A DNA stretch of 24,255 bases from a virus. Below the pieces are notes generated by a model. The model ran no database searches. It had not been told where the DNA came from and saw only the letters and a program-made list of their open reading frames with translations. The stretch is taken from UHGV virus genome UHGV-0262927. The stretch is one strand, 5' to 3'. The translations under genes and the position numbers were made by a program. Shown piece by piece: positions 9,462 through 14,272 of this stretch. Each line of letters starts with the position of its first letter. Position 1 is the first letter of the stretch.

Positions 9462-9680
9462 TTATGCAGCGTTCTGGCGTGAGTTTCGAATAGTCGTCTC
9501 AATCCATTCATCAATCTCACTTTCGACAAAGGCGACACATCTTGGCTCTATTTTTACTCTGTCTGGAAAGTTTCCTTCCTTAATACGTTCATATAAAGTC
9601 GTGCGACTAAATCCCACTCGATTTAAAACATCAGGAACGCGGATAAATCGTTTTACGCTGGTTTCACTATTTTCTTTCAT
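9462..9680 (-). CDS. alpA: AlpA-family phage/island transcriptional regulator (72 aa)
   Basis: Characteristic sequence ...IRVPDVLNRVGFSRTTLYERIKEGNFPDRVKIEPRCVAFVESEIDEWI... matching the AlpA pattern as I recall it. Confidence 0.8.
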   Translation of the reverse strand: MKENSETSVKRFIRVPDVLNRVGFSRTTLYERIKEGNFPDRVKIEPRCVAFVESEIDEWIETTIRNSRQNAA

Positions 9681-9895: not shown

Positions 9896-10789
9896 TTATT
9901 TTTTCTTATTCCTGTCGTCTTCTACATGCTTTTCAACAGGGGAGTCTTTCAAGTGGTTGTTTTCCATCATGTAATCTTCAAGCGACTTCAGATAGCTCGC
10001 ATCCGTCAGAAAAGCCATTGCTAACGGGTAATCTGTAGCCTTGAGCATTCCTTCATCACGATCGTTGTCGCTGTCCTCGTGAAGCAGCGAGGAAATCAGT
10101 GAAAGCGGGATTTTAATGCCGTTATCTTCTCCCCAGAAGATCAGGTCCATCATCGGGATAAGATGATATTCAATAATTTTTCTGAACGTGCTTTTGCCGA
10201 AACGATACTCTCTTGGAGCTGGAGACGTCATCTTAAGCTGCCTCTTCCATTGAGGGATCAGCACTTTCAGATGTTCAATGATCTCTTCGGTTGATGCTTC
10301 TTCCAGATGAATATCGACAGTAATACGTGAAAGATTATTAAGGGATGTCTCTTTTAGATACTCGGACAGAAATTCGGATTCACTTAACGCGGAAAGCTCA
10401 GGCGTGGCTTCGGTTAATGCCAGCGTTTTCGCATAAAATTGCGCGTGGCGTCGTGTCGTAGGATTTACCGCGTAGGTTCTGGCAAGCTCATGTCCAAGGG
10501 TAGCGGTATCACCACTGAAAAAGATTTCACCGCTGAGGATCTTGTTGCGGTAATCATCCAGCATTAATCGGTTAAAGGTAGGTATGGTGTTCCGGCTCAA
10601 CAACATTCTGTAAGCCAAGATGCGCCGCTCAACCTCAACATAAAACTGCTGTAAGGAGAGTTTCTCTATCGCCTCATAGCGTTCAACATTAAACCATGCT
10701 TCCAGTGCTTTCCTGATTTCACTTCTTTTCATCCATCCTCCAACAACCCATTTCCTTTGATATATCTTCACAGGATCCGTTTGGAACAA
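9896..10789 (-). CDS. hypothetical protein (297 aa), upstream of alpA
   Basis: ORF in track with moderate GC; not integrase-like by eye. Confidence 0.5.
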   Translation of the reverse strand: MFQTDPVKIYQRKWVVGGWMKRSEIRKALEAWFNVERYEAIEKLSLQQFYVEVERRILAYRMLLSRNTIPTFNRLMLDDYRNKILSGEIFFSGDTATLGHELARTYAVNPTTRRHAQFYAKTLALTEATPELSALSESEFLSEYLKETSLNNLSRITVDIHLEEASTEEIIEHLKVLIPQWKRQLKMTSPAPREYRFGKSTFRKIIEYHLIPMMDLIFWGEDNGIKIPLSLISSLLHEDSDNDRDEGMLKATDYPLAMAFLTDASYLKSLEDYMMENNHLKDSPVEKHVEDDRNKKK

Positions 10790-11010: not shown

Positions 11011-11072
11011 TGGCGGAGAGAGGGGGATTTGAACCCCCGGTGGAGTTGCCCCCACTCCGGTTTTCGAGACCG
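11011..11072 (-). tRNA. Truncated tRNA-Ser(CGA) 3' segment (anticodon stem to CCA, ~62 nt); att-site direct repeat, not a functional gene
   Basis: Minus-strand reading GGTCTCGAAAACCGGAGTGGGGGCAACTCCACCGGGGGTTCAAATCCCCCTCTCTCCGCCA shows anticodon loop CUCGAAA, long variable arm, T-arm GGGGG-TTCAAAT-CCCCC and acceptor 3' strand with CCA; no D-arm or 5' acceptor strand upstream. Confidence 0.8.
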
Positions 11073-11563
11073 ATGATACAGAGTCGAAAAATCAAAGAGT
11101 TAAAAATTTTTCTTGGAATAAATGTCTTAAAATCGTACACGAAAAATCAATAAATTACATAACATTAAAGAAGAATATTCCAAGCCTTCTTGAGGCCACC
11201 ACCTGTTTTCAGGTGTCATTCAGATGTGATTTACCCCAGATTGGGAAAGCACGCTTTTTTTTTCTCAGCTTATTCCGTTTTGCCTGTGTGTTGAATAATT
11301 CCACTGCAGTTATATAAAATCGGTAACGGCTGGAAATCATTCAATACTCGCACTATCGAAAGTTCACCAGCCAACCGCAGCACGTCCTGCATACGTCGTG
11401 TCTGCGGTTTTTCTTTTTCGCTTACATTGTGTCTGGTTCTTCCAGCCACTCAATATCAGGTGCAGTTGATGTATCAACACGGTTCAGCAACACCCGATAC
11501 TTTTTCCAGGCTTCCAGCAACGGGGTTTCTTCCTCCGCCGTTGCATATACAGCTCACCTTTTT

Positions 11564-11857
11564 TCACCCACGATTAACCAACAGCCAGACCAGCAGACAC
11601 GCCACCACCGGCACAGCAAAATCCATCAGGCTTGCCACATCCCACGCGCGCGGATCAAAACCGCCCCACCACGGCATATTCATACGCTTGCCATGCACGA
11701 ACATTTCAATCCAGCGATATTCTGCCTGGGTGTGTTCACGCGCAATGAAGAACGTACAACCGGCTATCGCCCCGTAAGCCCAGTTTCCGGTAAAAAGACC
11801 AGCCAGTACCTGCACCGCTACGGCACAAAGCGCATGAAGTATCGACGTGATATCCAT
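11564..11857 (-). CDS. small membrane protein (97 aa, two predicted hydrophobic helices); prophage terminal cargo
   Basis: Hydrophobic stretches ILHALCAVAVQVLAGLF and FAVPVVACLLVWLLV; the overlapping 352-aa plus ORF is judged an artefact. Confidence 0.45.
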   Translation of the reverse strand: MDITSILHALCAVAVQVLAGLFTGNWAYGAIAGCTFFIAREHTQAEYRWIEMFVHGKRMNMPWWGGFDPRAWDVASLMDFAVPVVACLLVWLLVNRG

Positions 11858-11866
11858 CTGCTATCC

Positions 11867-12145
11867 TTAAAACCACTCCCTGAGCGGGCGCTCTGGTGTA
11901 ACCACCCACTCACGGAACACGGAATCATCAAATCCATCGTCAAGAAGACGGATATTAACAAAGTACCCTTCGTCTCGCGTGTATTCTGGTTCTCCGTCAT
12001 CAGGAACATCTGTCTCCCTGAACGTAAAACCAATCTCATCAACCAGAACGGCATTCTGCAGCTCTTCGTCCTCTTCCCAGTTAAGTTTCCTGAGAAATGC
12101 CCTGAAATCTGCTTTATCACTGAAACGCAACGTGAAATCTCTCAC
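11867..12145 (-). CDS. small highly acidic protein (92 aa); prophage terminal cargo
   Basis: About 25 of 92 residues are Asp/Glu by count of the translation; directly downstream of the tail-fibre gene. Confidence 0.5.
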   Translation of the reverse strand: MRDFTLRFSDKADFRAFLRKLNWEEDEELQNAVLVDEIGFTFRETDVPDDGEPEYTRDEGYFVNIRLLDDGFDDSVFREWVVTPERPLREWF

Positions 12146-14214
12146 TCCACAACCTCCCCAAGCTGCGCATCTGTTAGCTCTTTATGCCAGAGACGAAAAT
12201 TCCTCACATGCCCAAATAAATGGCGTAATCCTGCTGTAGTTTGTCCACCAATGCGAATGGTTGCTGTACTCCGGATATATTCCCATTTGGTTTTAGTTTC
12301 GCTGCTTAACTTACCGTTACTGACTACACATGTGGACCGTTCGGACTTTACCCGCATACCAATAAGCATTTTTTCCAGCCCGGCATTTTCATTTATTCGT
12401 CGGTTTGAACCACCTATATCACAATACGGAAAACCGTCGTACCCACCTGATGAACCAAACCCCATTACGATCCCCGCATCTGCCTGATGCCGGTATGTGT
12501 CAAAAACACGCGGTGCTGCATTTGGCGTTTTATACCAGTTCTTATGTACCTCACAAAGAACCGTAAAAGGAAGATTATAAAGATTATTCTTAATCGGAAC
12601 TGTAACCATATCGCTTGCCCGCGTTACCGGTGCCGTCCCCGTAACAATAAAAGATGATGCGCCTGTACCAGCCTCAATCTGTGGAGTGGTTACATCGAGA
12701 TAATCCCCTGATGCAACCATCTGCCCTGTATCCGGAGAATACTGGACAAAACCACCAACCGTATTTTCTGTTGTATCTGCTTTTAATGTAGCCTCAAAAA
12801 ATATCCAGCCAGTTGCATCATCCTTAACAGACCTTGCTGTAACACGGCTTGTCTGACCTGTCTTGCTAATTATGCGGGTGGTAAGGTTCAGGTTTGCTGC
12901 TCCTATTGATGTCCTTACCTCCCCATCATAATGTTCAAATAAAATACGAACGGCGATATTATCAACTTCACTTTTTACCCGACAGGATATAGTTACATGC
13001 TTTTCGTCCCCTGAAGTATCAACCCCTCCGGTACTCGAATACAGTCCGATAATGGTATGCGCTTTACTTGTACCAACAATCGAATCCTGTACGACAAACC
13101 GGCCATAATTAAACCCGAAACTATCTGTGCCTGTTTCTGTAACGTCCAGTGAAGTTGACTTATTCCACTTCGAAGGGTCTGTACTGTTCTGGAAGAAGTT
13201 CGTTCTTTGTCCCTCAATAAGCAGGCCATCACACTCAAATCGCGGCTCATTAATTTCCGCCGTTTTCAGTTCGCCAGATTTGTTGATATATGTTGCCGTT
13301 GATGCGCGACTGAAATTAACCTGTTTATCACTGGCAACCTGAACCACATTATCGCCAATCTTCACTTTTTTATAACCCGGAGAATAGCCCGTAATCATAT
13401 CCAGCGAATCATTAAAGGGTATCCACACATCCGGCAGCGGCTGTAAAACATATCTGTACGGCTCTGCTGTCTGGTTTGCGTATTCTCTGGCAGCATCTTC
13501 ACTTGCTTTTGCTGCCGTCTGGCTTGCTGCCGATGCTTTCGCCGAGTTCGCCGCCGCTGTTTCGCTCACCTTTGCGTTGGCTTCACTGTCTTTGGCATTC
13601 GTCTCACTGGTTTTCGCTGCCGTCTGGCTGGATTTTGCGTTTTTTTCGCTGGCCTTTGTGGCTGTCTCGCTATTTTTCGCGTTGGTTTCTGATTTTTTGG
13701 CTGCTGTCGCGGAGTTTGCCGATGCAGTCTGCGAGGCCGCTGCCGCCTGTGCGCTGTTAGCTGCATTCGTTTCTGAGGTTTTCGCCGCATTCTTCGATGA
13801 GGCTGCTGCCGTTTCGGATTTCTTTGCCGCCGCTGCACTCTGTGATGACGCTCCGGCATGACGTGCCACTTCATTCACCATCAGCTCAAAACGGCGCAGT
13901 GCCTCCGGACGGGCATCATCCTCCGTCATGGCACCGAGAAAATCATTCAGCGTACCTGGTCTGGAACCTTCATAGACGGTAATGGTCCCGGCATGTGAAG
14001 GTGGAAAACCTTCAACCAGCAGGGTGACGCTGTACTGGCCATACTCAACATCCATGCTGTAACGCCCGGCTTCATCCGGATTTTCAGAGGCCACCGTGTT
14101 CACCAGTACCGTGGTGCTGTTACGCTTTGCCTTCAGTTGAATAGTGCAGTTCTGTATTGGTTTTCCCGCACCATCTTTCAGCACACCTGAGATTTTTACT
14201 GCTGCCATATCCAC
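12142..14214 (-). CDS. stf: Side tail fibre protein, lambda Stf-like N-terminus (690 aa)
   Basis: N-terminus MAAVKISGVLKDGAGKPIQNCTIQLKA resembles lambda-family tail-fibre N-termini as I recall them; long Ala/Ser/Thr/Lys-rich repeat tract (KxSETNA-like units). Confidence 0.8.
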   Translation of the reverse strand: MDMAAVKISGVLKDGAGKPIQNCTIQLKAKRNSTTVLVNTVASENPDEAGRYSMDVEYGQYSVTLLVEGFPPSHAGTITVYEGSRPGTLNDFLGAMTEDDARPEALRRFELMVNEVARHAGASSQSAAAAKKSETAAASSKNAAKTSETNAANSAQAAAASQTASANSATAAKKSETNAKNSETATKASEKNAKSSQTAAKTSETNAKDSEANAKVSETAAANSAKASAASQTAAKASEDAAREYANQTAEPYRYVLQPLPDVWIPFNDSLDMITGYSPGYKKVKIGDNVVQVASDKQVNFSRASTATYINKSGELKTAEINEPRFECDGLLIEGQRTNFFQNSTDPSKWNKSTSLDVTETGTDSFGFNYGRFVVQDSIVGTSKAHTIIGLYSSTGGVDTSGDEKHVTISCRVKSEVDNIAVRILFEHYDGEVRTSIGAANLNLTTRIISKTGQTSRVTARSVKDDATGWIFFEATLKADTTENTVGGFVQYSPDTGQMVASGDYLDVTTPQIEAGTGASSFIVTGTAPVTRASDMVTVPIKNNLYNLPFTVLCEVHKNWYKTPNAAPRVFDTYRHQADAGIVMGFGSSGGYDGFPYCDIGGSNRRINENAGLEKMLIGMRVKSERSTCVVSNGKLSSETKTKWEYIRSTATIRIGGQTTAGLRHLFGHVRNFRLWHKELTDAQLGEVVE
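13480..13860. repeat. In-gene imperfect tandem repeats encoding the low-complexity tract of the tail fibre
   Basis: Periodic DNA pattern generating overlapping artefactual ORFs on both strands (13476-13760, 13577-13861, 13566-13874). Confidence 0.5.
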
Positions 14215-14220
14215 TCCACA

Positions 14221-14245
14221 AAAAAGCCCGCCTGAACCGGCGGGC
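14221..14245 (-). terminator. Rho-independent terminator downstream of lom
   Basis: Minus strand: GCCCGCC-ggttca-GGCGGGC followed by TTTTT. Confidence 0.6.
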
Positions 14246-14272
14246 TGTCATAACACTGTGTTACCTGGCTAA

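What the first reader, a model, noticed from the sequence alone, without database searches (positions are those of the whole stretch)
11564..11857. Small two-helix membrane protein at the prophage terminus
A 97-aa protein with two hydrophobic segments and an aromatic-rich loop (WWGGFDPRAW) is the last gene before the att repeat. The position and size are typical of lysogenic-conversion or superinfection-exclusion factors.
Basis: inference. Interest (0 to 1): 0.35.

Follow-up and report, generated by a model that had tools for sequence, protein, structure and literature searches.

The report
Small membrane protein travelling with tail-fibre genes
The 97-residue gene is real and encodes a strongly conserved small membrane protein of unknown function that, in many unrelated phages, sits directly after the gene for the receptor-binding tail fibre or spike; related genes also lie in ordinary chromosomal positions in some bacteria, so it is a good uncharacterised candidate, not a proven exclusion factor.

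Summary
The ORF at 11564-11857 (- strand, 97 aa) is a real gene under purifying selection (dN/dS about 0.15; no premature stop in 143 loci). It is the last intact gene before a 62-nt serU fragment (11011-11072) that marks the end of a lambda-like prophage.

The AlphaFold2 model (pLDDT 92) has three helices, not two. Charge counts place the conserved loop, including WWGGFDPRAW, on the cytoplasmic side.

It belongs to PHROG 1443 (unknown function). It has no match in Pfam, NCBIfam, PADLOC or PDB sequences, and no similarity to P22 SieA, HK97 gp15 or two holins tested.

It occurs in 38% of complete E. coli genomes. In every phage context examined it lies next to a tail-fibre or tail-spike gene, nearly always immediately 3' of it with short or overlapping junctions, across lambda-like, P2/HP1-like, multi-tailspike and jumbo phages. 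Here it is tightly linked to the stf-orf92 genes, and no promoter of its own was detected.

Homologues also sit in conserved non-phage loci in Aeromonas and Sphingomonas, and probably Leclercia.

A role in superinfection exclusion or lysogenic conversion is plausible but untested. Function remains unknown. Interest is moderate.

The parts
11564..11857 (-). The 97-aa ORF, called t97 here. A predicted three-helix inner-membrane protein and member of PHROG 1443. Invariant or near-invariant residues: H8, R40, E41, Q44, A45, E46, W72, P83.
11858..11866 (-). 9-nt junction between the orf92 stop and the t97 ATG. An AAGGA Shine-Dalgarno overlaps the orf92 stop codon. There is no room for a promoter.
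   Evidence: sequence read directly
11867..12145 (-). orf92, a 92-aa acidic soluble protein (PHROG 1361). Its GTG start overlaps the tail-fibre stop codon (GTGA). It is restricted to Escherichia and follows fibres of the GTA-spike type.
12142..14214 (-). Side tail fibre, 690 aa: N-terminal prophage tail-fibre domain plus a C-terminal GTA-spike-fibre-like domain. This is the receptor-binding protein that t97 follows.
14225..14246 (-). Intrinsic-terminator-like hairpin after lom, upstream of stf-orf92-t97.
11422..11535 (-). Remnant of the C-terminus of a tail-fibre-assembly (tfa) gene. RefSeq annotates it as a pseudogene. It is 85% identical to the end of lambda tfa, and the same remnant follows t97 in other Escherichia prophages and in phage 21.
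11011..11072 (-). The 3' 62 nt of tRNA-Ser(CGA) serU. This is the att core and the prophage boundary. It is not a complete tRNA.

Best explanation
Shown here:
- t97 is a non-structural accessory gene encoding a roughly 95-residue, three-helix integral membrane protein of a large uncharacterised family (PHROG 1443).
- In phages it sits beside the receptor-binding-protein gene (tail fibre or tail spike). In all but one examined context it is immediately 3' of it, co-oriented, usually with overlapping or very short junctions. In this prophage it is the last cistron of stf-orf92-t97.
- The same family has ordinary chromosomal members in several Proteobacteria.

Inferred:
- It is made together with the tail fibre from the late transcript and inserts into the inner membrane of the infected cell.
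- Its orientation is N-terminus in, C-terminus out. This puts the conserved polar cluster (H8, R40/E41, Q44, E46, W72, D79) and the WWGGFD loop at the cytoplasmic face.
- Because sequence conservation is very high across distant hosts and is independent of fibre type, the loop most likely engages a conserved host inner-membrane component, not a phage protein or a specific surface receptor.
- The most likely benefit to the phage is exclusion-type protection of the infected or lysogenic cell, for example by blocking genome entry at the inner membrane or the display of envelope receptors. This would be analogous to other small phage-borne inner-membrane proteins, without being related to them.
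For: - Gene reality and constraint: 564 homologues; 439 clusters at 50% identity, all stand-alone proteins of about 60-146 aa; dN/dS about 0.15 and no premature stop in 143 loci.
- Fold: AlphaFold2 pLDDT 92.4, three helices.
- Topology: across 58 diverse members, the N-tail plus loop carry 6.1 K/R on average, against 0.5 for the hairpin turn plus C-tail.
- Conserved residues.
- Accessory status: absent from lambda, present in phage 21 at the syntenic site.
- Adjacency to receptor-binding genes, by context:
  - lambda-like stf (window, phage 21);
  - after tfa and before the sheath gene in phiHAP-1;
  - after a Peptidase_S74 fibre and before baseplate genes in an HP1/P2-like Leclercia prophage;
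  - after a gpJ-like protein in Comamonas;
  - between two tailspikes in Salmonella;
  - after lipase/esterase-domain (GDSL) tailspikes;
  - after tail genes and before a complete lysis cassette;
  - after a Peptidase_S74 tailspike in Desulfovibrio.
  - In a further sample of nine viral contigs and one genomic prophage locus, all 10 upstream genes were tail fibre or spike genes, with gaps of -22 to +23 nt.
- Coupling in this window: GTGA overlap of stf and orf92, then a 9-nt gap before t97; no promoter detected and a terminator upstream of stf.
- Abundance: 2068 of 5426 complete E. coli genomes, up to 8 copies per genome; 434 IMG/VR contigs.
Against: - No functional data of any kind exist. All sources name it 'hypothetical', and no paper describing it was found.
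- Known exclusion proteins evolve fast; for example, the three SieA types are under 30% identical (PMC10883804). This family keeps about 55-60% identity from E. coli to Comamonas and Aeromonas, which fits a housekeeping-like activity better than an arms-race protein.
- Chromosomal orthologues in conserved non-phage loci show that the family's ancestral role is cellular.
- Late co-expression would not protect a lysogen unless a weak internal promoter exists.
- A full-length homologue in an Aeromonas jumbo phage suggests the benefit is not tied to lysogeny. That this phage is virulent is my assumption from prior knowledge.
- The topology rests on a charge count. The GenBank annotation of phage 21 cites a TMHMM prediction of two membrane spans with both ends inside, which would put the loop outside.
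Confidence: 0.33

Rival explanations
1. It is a very small membrane enzyme or ion/metal-binding protein with a general envelope function, acquired by phages from bacteria. The buried His/Glu/Asp/Arg cluster would be an active or binding site. Phage copies would alter a lipid-linked envelope precursor or the membrane state during infection. That would be lysogenic conversion in a broad sense, independent of receptor type.
For: - Sequence constraint is extreme for a phage gene: E41, W72 and P83 are invariant, and H8, R40, Q44, A45 and E46 are at least 90% conserved across 58 members sharing 28-53% identity.
- Orthologues sit in conserved chromosomal loci: polB-pirin-[gene]-RIO1-lpxL-lpxM in five Aeromonas genomes from four species, ligA-[gene]-prmA in Sphingomonas with ligA directly upstream in three further lineages, and a conserved locus in Leclercia.
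- The gene is independent of fibre type.
- Very small three-helix membrane enzymes exist, for example DgkA (from prior knowledge).
Against: - No similarity to any enzyme or transporter family in Pfam, NCBIfam or PDB sequences.
- Fold searches give only generic helical bundles.
- No conserved partner gene appears in the chromosomal loci.
- The polar cluster could simply hold the three helices together.
Confidence: 0.25
2. It is a lysis-timing accessory (antiholin or holin modulator) made late with the tail fibre.
For: - It is a small late membrane protein.
- In several phages it lies directly upstream of the lysis cassette: two holin-family genes, an endolysin and a spanin in L079; two putative holins, a GH108 endolysin and spanins in L082/L083.
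- T4 holin t also follows the fibre gene 38 (from prior knowledge).
Against: - There is no charged C-terminal tail: the C-tail averages 4 residues with 0.5 K/R.
- hhalign probability against the two neighbouring holins is 0.5% or less.
- Those cassettes are complete without it.
- In lambda-like phages the lysis genes are far away, and in P2/HP1-like phages it sits between tail genes.
- Conserved single-copy chromosomal orthologues fit poorly with a lethal or lysis-linked protein.
Confidence: 0.1
3. It helps the receptor-binding protein itself, for example as a membrane-anchored factor for fibre or spike maturation, or to prevent progeny virions from sticking to producer-cell debris.
For: Strict adjacency and co-orientation with fibre or spike genes in every phage context examined, often with overlapping stop and start codons.
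Against: - It follows fibres that carry their own chaperone: Peptidase_S74 domains or a separate tfa.
- Lambda assembles fibres without it.
- Tail fibres fold in the cytoplasm, and no membrane-bound fibre chaperone is known (from prior knowledge).
- Chromosomal orthologues have no fibre gene nearby.
Confidence: 0.1
4. It is a classical moron with its own promoter, expressed from the repressed prophage as a dedicated superinfection-exclusion or serum/virulence factor.
For: - It lies at the tail-fibre/att end, where lambdoid cargo genes cluster (sitABCD follows it in phage 21).
- Its G+C is 55%, against 45-47% for orf92 and the 3' part of stf.
- It shows presence/absence polymorphism among lambdoid phages.
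Against: - No promoter-like or terminator-like site flanks it, and its junctions are too short to hold a promoter.
- The association is with the fibre gene, not with the prophage end.
- A homologue is present in an Aeromonas jumbo phage that I assume to be virulent.
Confidence: 0.12

Closest known systems
P22 SieA (inner-membrane superinfection-exclusion protein; PMC10883804)
   Same: It is a phage-encoded integral inner-membrane protein with three predicted membrane spans. It needs no other phage protein and acts at the inner membrane. In P22 it is encoded in the region between the ejection-protein genes and the tailspike gene.
   Different: SieA is 162-164 aa, has its own promoter and is on the opposite strand to the late genes. 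It diverges fast. No sequence relationship was found (hhalign probability 0.3%). t97 is co-oriented with and coupled to the fibre gene and is highly conserved.
HK97 gp15 (moron-encoded exclusion protein in the tail gene cluster)
   Same: It is a small membrane protein inserted among tail genes and absent from related phages. It has chromosomal relatives (the YebO family, recalled from the literature).
   Different: gp15 is 62 aa and is flanked by its own terminator. No similarity was found (hhalign probability 0.3%). t97 has no detectable signals of its own.
Cor (phi80/N15/HK022) and T5 Llp: exclusion proteins encoded next to receptor-binding genes
   Same: The gene position is next to the receptor-binding or tail-fibre genes. 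The logic would be to protect the infected cell or progeny from the phage's own adsorption apparatus.
   Different: Cor and Llp are outer-membrane lipoproteins specific for one receptor, FhuA (from prior knowledge). t97 has no lipobox or signal peptide: its N-terminus is MDITS, with no positive charge. It is found next to many unrelated fibre and spike types. Sequence comparison with Cor and Llp was not run.
PHROG 1443 (phage protein family of unknown function)
   Same: Full-length match, E = 1.2e-56. This is the family it belongs to.
   Different: The family carries no functional annotation, so membership explains nothing about mechanism.
Cargo hotspot after the tail-fibre genes of P2-like phages (the Z/fun position)
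   Same: In phiHAP-1 the homologue lies between tfa and the sheath gene. In P2 that position carries anti-phage cargo (from prior knowledge).
   Different: No match to any PADLOC defence model. It is a single small membrane protein, not a known defence system.

Membership tests
PHROG 1443 | Significant full-length match to the family profile | tested here: met
   E = 1.2e-56, residues 1-96 against profile positions 1-96 of 97
Phage moron (accessory gene inserted in a conserved module) | Present in some and absent from other syntenic relatives | tested here: met
   Lambda's J-to-att region has no match; phage 21 has it after stf
Phage moron (accessory gene inserted in a conserved module) | Own promoter and terminator flanking the gene | tested here: not met
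   The simple consensus scan finds neither on the - strand. The gap to orf92 is 9 nt, and orf92 overlaps the stf stop codon. The scan is crude, so weak promoters are not excluded.
Phage moron (accessory gene inserted in a conserved module) | Base composition different from its neighbours | tested here: met
   G+C 0.55 over the gene, against 0.45-0.47 for orf92 and the 3' part of stf
Superinfection-exclusion inner-membrane proteins (SieA, HK97 gp15, T4 Imm) | Sequence relationship to a characterised member | tested here: not met
   hhalign probability 0.3% against P22 SieA and against HK97 gp15. T4 Imm was not compared.
Superinfection-exclusion inner-membrane proteins (SieA, HK97 gp15, T4 Imm) | Inner-membrane location | tested here: inconclusive
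   Prediction only: three helices in the AlphaFold2 model, hydropathy and charge bias
Superinfection-exclusion inner-membrane proteins (SieA, HK97 gp15, T4 Imm) | Blocks infection or DNA entry when expressed alone | not testable with these tools
   Needs plating, adsorption and K+ efflux assays
Known anti-phage defence systems (PADLOC-DB) | Match to a defence protein model | tested here: not met
   No hit at E <= 0.1 for t97, orf92 or three distant homologues
Holins | Charged hydrophilic C-terminal tail after the last membrane span | tested here: not met
   The protein ends NRG, three residues after helix 3. The family's C-tail averages 4.2 residues with 0.47 K/R.
Holins | Adjacent to an endolysin gene, and the only holin candidate there | tested here: not met
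   No lysis gene lies nearby in this window. Where a lysis cassette follows (L079, L082), separate holin genes are present.
Holins | Similarity to a holin family | tested here: not met
   No Pfam holin hit for the window protein. One of 58 relatives gave E = 0.0036 to Phage_holin_8. hhalign probability is 0.5% or less against two holins.
Tail-fibre assembly proteins (Tfa) | Similarity to Tfa, and a soluble protein | tested here: not met
   No Pfam or PHROG tail-assembly hit. The protein is hydrophobic. It coexists with tfa in phiHAP-1.
O-antigen conversion proteins (GtrA/B/C, Oac) | Match to the GtrA, glycosyltransferase or acyltransferase families | tested here: not met
   No Pfam family at E <= 0.1; none among 58 relatives

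The most novel reading that the evidence does not exclude
PHROG 1443 is a previously unrecognised family of very small (about 95 aa) three-helix inner-membrane proteins with a conserved His/Glu/Arg/Asp site. It would be ancestral in Proteobacteria and repeatedly captured by phages as a generic companion of receptor-binding proteins. It would perform a receptor-independent step at the inner membrane: a catalytic or ion-dependent modification of a lipid-linked envelope precursor, or closure of the genome-entry route. On this reading, carrying it next to the fibre or spike gene would be an advantage for any phage, temperate or virulent.
Probability: 0.2. Interest if true: 0.7.

Novelty: new variant of a known kind. 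Interest (0 to 1): 0.42.

Why it matters
The gene is one of the commonest unexplained prophage genes in E. coli: 38% of complete genomes carry it, often in several copies. Its relatives sit beside the receptor-binding gene in many unrelated phage types. A small, highly constrained membrane protein that travels with host-range determinants could affect phage-phage competition, lysogen surface properties or the success of phage therapy cocktails. It is short, has clear candidate residues for mutagenesis (H8, E41, E46, W72), and occurs in a classical, tractable phage (phage 21 gene 24), so it can be tested cheaply. If it turns out to be only a structural-looking cargo gene with a weak phenotype, the finding is ordinary.

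Tried and rejected
- Family libraries: Pfam and NCBIfam on the protein gave nothing. Pfam on 58 diverse relatives gave only scattered sub-threshold hits. PADLOC gave none. A PDB sequence-profile search gave none.
- The exhaustive HMM search found no domain fusions that could hint at function.
- Direct profile comparisons were negative: P22 SieA, HK97 gp15 and two holins.
- Literature: searches on phage 21 and lambdoid phages, on exclusion proteins near tail fibres, and on the UniRef name 'Ybl63' found no characterisation.
- The IMG/VR scan with the very diverse alignment failed because no stretch was conserved enough. It was repeated with closer alignments.
- orf92: the structure model was poor (pLDDT 60), so no fold search was run on it.
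- A cleavable signal peptide, as noted in the phage 21 GenBank record, was considered and rejected. The N-terminus MDITS has no positive charge, and H8 and Q16 inside the putative signal are conserved.
- A chance ORF on the strand opposite the 352-aa + strand ORF (11429-12487) was considered and rejected on homology and dN/dS.

Full report
**1. The observation**

The ORF is at exactly 11564..11857 on the - strand, with an ATG start, and encodes 97 aa. RefSeq annotates the identical gene in E. coli LC-1302-2020 as a hypothetical protein.

On the coding strand the order is tape-measure, L, K, I, J, lom, a 690-aa side tail fibre (12142-14214), a 92-aa ORF (11867-12145), then the target. The motif WWGGFDPRAW is at residues 63-72.

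The gene is under purifying selection. Among 37 distinct Escherichia-type alleles, mean dN is 0.024 and mean dS is 0.147, giving a ratio of about 0.15-0.16. None of 143 loci has a premature stop.

**2. Position relative to the prophage end**

ARAGORN finds no tRNA in the window. However, 11011-11072 is a 62-nt copy of the 3' end of serU (tRNA-Ser CGA) of K-12.

Homology between the window and a second lysogen starts exactly at the tRNA 3' end. To the left, that lysogen continues with native chromosome next to zinT, while the window continues with a different island. To the right of "GAGACCG" the tRNA sequence is replaced by phage DNA. The prophage therefore ends at about 11072.

The target is the last intact gene before that point. 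Between them lie a 37-codon remnant of the C-terminus of tfa (11422-11535; a RefSeq pseudogene; 85% identical to lambda tfa) and about 350 nt with no annotated feature. Only one copy of the att core is in the window.

**3. The protein**

AlphaFold2, run with a 32-sequence alignment, gives pLDDT 92.4 and three helices: 4-23, 26-53 and 74-96. The N-terminal hydrophobic block is a hairpin with its turn at T23-G24-N25. One distant relative has an insertion at exactly this turn.

Residue conservation:

| Alignment | Invariant | At least 90% conserved |
|---|---|---|
| 32 gamma/beta-proteobacterial sequences, 53-91% identity | D2, H8, Q16, G29, R40, E41, T43-W49, G56, R58, M61, P62, W64-D68, W72, D79, P83, C87 | not listed here |
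| 58 diverse members, 28-53% identity | E41, W72, P83 | H8, R40, Q44, A45, E46 |

In an antiparallel hairpin, H8 faces R40/E41, and D79 sits at the same depth in helix 3. That is a buried polar cluster at one membrane boundary. This is an inference from the helix boundaries; the model coordinates could not be inspected.

Lysine and arginine counts over the 58 sequences average 6.1 on the N-tail plus loop side and 0.5 on the turn plus C-tail side. By the positive-inside rule, the conserved loop is cytoplasmic (N-terminus in, C-terminus out).

The GenBank annotation of phage 21 instead cites TMHMM (two spans, both ends inside) and a SignalP signal peptide. The signal peptide is unlikely, because the N-terminus has no positive charge and carries conserved residues.

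**4. What family it is**

- It belongs to PHROG 1443, of unknown function (E = 1.2e-56).
- Pfam, NCBIfam, PADLOC and PDB sequences give no match.
- Fold searches give only generic helical bundles.
- The exhaustive profile search finds 439 clusters at 50% identity. The 150 best listed are all stand-alone proteins of about 60-146 aa with no added domains.
- Every source names it 'hypothetical' or the uninformative 'Ybl63'.
- No paper describing it was found.

**5. Distribution**

- E. coli: 2068 of 5426 complete genomes carry it. The median is 2 copies and the maximum is 8; 65 places are on plasmids.
- Deposited phage genomes: 70 records match at E <= 1e-5 and 75 at E <= 1e-3, including phage 21.
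- IMG/VR: 434 viral contigs.
- Species-representative genomes: relatives occur in Escherichia, Leclercia, Silvania, Pantoea, Aeromonas, Comamonas, Acidovorax, Halomonas, many Sphingomonadales and Desulfovibrio.

**6. Context in phages**

The recurring feature is adjacency to a receptor-binding-protein gene, not the prophage terminus.

| Phage or locus | What t97 follows or lies between |
|---|---|
| Window and phage 21 (lambda-like) | stf, then orf92, then t97 |
| Other Escherichia prophages | stf, orf93, a second fibre fragment (234 or 346 aa), then t97 |
| Halomonas phage phiHAP-1 | tfa, then t97 (ATGA overlap), then sheath |
| HP1/P2-like Leclercia prophage | a 939-aa fibre with a Peptidase_S74 domain, then t97 (1-nt gap), then baseplate genes |
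| Comamonas prophage | a gpJ-like giant protein and a 72-aa ORF, then t97 |
| Salmonella locus | between two pectate-lyase tailspikes |
| E. coli and metagenomic contigs | tailspikes with a lipase/esterase (GDSL) domain, then t97 |
| L082/L083 | a 405-aa fibre like the GTA-spike domain of stf and its 174-aa partner, then t97, then a complete lysis cassette |
| Desulfovibrio | a Peptidase_S74 tailspike, then t97 |
| Aeromonas jumbo phage AVP1 | a full-length homologue just upstream of a 758-aa protein with a weak tail-fibre match (E = 1.9e-4) |

In a further sample of nine diverse viral contigs and one genomic prophage locus, all 10 upstream genes were tail fibre or spike proteins, with junctions of -22 to +23 nt.

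The fibre and spike domains differ widely, while t97 stays 55-65% identical. In tblastn of the window's tail proteins against 70 genomic loci, t97 was usually the only gene that matched.

orf92 is not a constant partner. It is confined to Escherichia, with 25 clusters.

**7. Context outside phages**

- In five Aeromonas genomes from four species the gene sits in the same locus: polB, a 220-aa gene, pirin, [gene], RIO1 kinase, lpxL, lpxM. No phage genes are present.
- In Sphingomonas arvum it lies between a full-length cellular ligA and prmA. Homologues of that upstream gene lie directly upstream in three further lineages, and the Pfam tally found NAD-dependent ligase domains in three of the sampled upstream neighbours.
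- Five Leclercia genomes share the downstream chromosomal genes.
- The family is therefore not phage-specific.

**8. Expression signals in the window**

- stf ends ...GAGTGA, and the orf92 GTG overlaps that stop codon (GTGA), with GGGGAGG just upstream.
- The t97 ATG is 9 nt after the orf92 TAA, with AAGGA as its Shine-Dalgarno.
- A strong terminator-like hairpin follows lom (14246-14225).
- No sigma-70-like promoter was found on the - strand between that hairpin and the ORF, and no terminator after the ORF (a simple scan).
- By analogy with lambda (established knowledge), these genes would be read by Q-modified polymerase from the late promoter. That is an inference.
- G+C is 0.55 over the gene, against 0.45-0.47 over orf92 and the 3' part of stf.
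- Lambda lacks t97 and orf92 but keeps an intact tfa. Phage 21 has both, plus the tfa remnant. The gene is therefore accessory and appears to have arrived with a fibre cassette that replaced most of tfa.

**9. Interpretation**

Shown: t97 is an accessory, highly constrained, predicted membrane protein. It is co-located with receptor-binding genes across phage types and tightly linked to them, and it has cellular orthologues.

Inferred: it is expressed late, sits in the inner membrane, and acts through a cytoplasm-proximal conserved site.

My best reading (about one in three) is a host-directed inner-membrane function that gives exclusion-type protection. It would be analogous to SieA, HK97 gp15 or Imm but unrelated to them.

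The main rival (about one in four) is a very small enzyme or ion-binding protein with a general envelope role, captured from bacteria. The very high conservation and the chromosomal orthologues favour this.

The other readings are less likely, for the reasons listed under the rival explanations:
- a lysis-timing accessory;
- a fibre maturation helper;
- a classical moron with its own promoter.

**10. Verdict**

The family is uncharacterised, abundant and easy to test in phage 21 (gene 24). Interest is moderate (0.42). It is a new, unrelated variant of a known kind: small membrane accessory proteins carried by phages.

Noticed in passing
window 2070-4004 (- strand): A type I Septu anti-phage system lies in the neighbouring island. 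PtuA is at 2739-4004 (PADLOC E = 8.8e-147) and PtuB, an HNH protein, is at 2070-2735 (E = 1.3e-85).
   Followed up: partly
window 5067-5155 and 5214-6011: Four tandem copies (plus one distant copy at 1470-1490) of a 21-nt repeat, TCCTATGTTCGAACATAGCAA, at about 23-nt spacing lie directly upstream of an ORF with weak HTH_36/RepL similarity. This looks like an iteron-type replication origin plus initiator. Together with AlpA (9462-9680) and DUF6387 (9896-10789), it suggests a satellite- or PICI-like island in tandem with the prophage at serU.
   Followed up: partly
window 1462-1749 versus 4156-4321 and 4658-4943: Direct repeats of 63-166 nt at 69-86% identity bracket the Septu gene pair, as if the pair were a cassette exchanged between conserved flanks.
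   Followed up: no
window 11040 and 11050 (within the serU fragment 11011-11072): The window's copy of the serU 3' end differs from K-12 and from the other lysogen at two positions (A to G and T to C). By my reading these pair with each other in the variable-arm stem, which would make the changes compensatory. This suggests the copy was supplied by a mobile element and is not the original chromosomal tRNA.
   Followed up: partly
window 11465-11566 (- strand): A partial, sub-threshold Rfam match to IS009 (68 bits against a gathering score of 117; E = 2.5e-15) covers the tfa remnant. It probably reflects the conserved 3' end of tfa genes on which that candidate RNA family was built.
   Followed up: no
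window 11867-12145 (- strand): orf92 (PHROG 1361) is an acidic 92-aa protein whose start overlaps the fibre stop codon. It is confined to Escherichia. Larger, possibly analogous partners (174-188 aa) follow the related fibre in Comamonas-type prophages. Its AlphaFold2 model was poor (pLDDT 60).
   Followed up: partly
loci L092, L097, L101 and many others (IMG/VR): Many automated prophage calls in IMG/VR end 3 nt after the stop codon of this gene. In practice it often marks the called prophage boundary.
   Followed up: no
L073 8001-8309 (Aeromonas rivipollensis) and L006, L008, L009, L014: The chromosomal orthologue in Aeromonas lies next to a RIO1-type kinase and two lipid A late acyltransferase genes on the opposite strand. 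This could be coincidence or a hint of an envelope-lipid link.
   Followed up: partly
window 13484-13671: The middle of the side tail fibre contains 41-nt direct repeats encoding an Ala/Ser/Thr/Lys/Glu-rich periodic segment (AAKKSETNAKNSE...). From prior knowledge, this is typical of fibre shafts.
   Followed up: no
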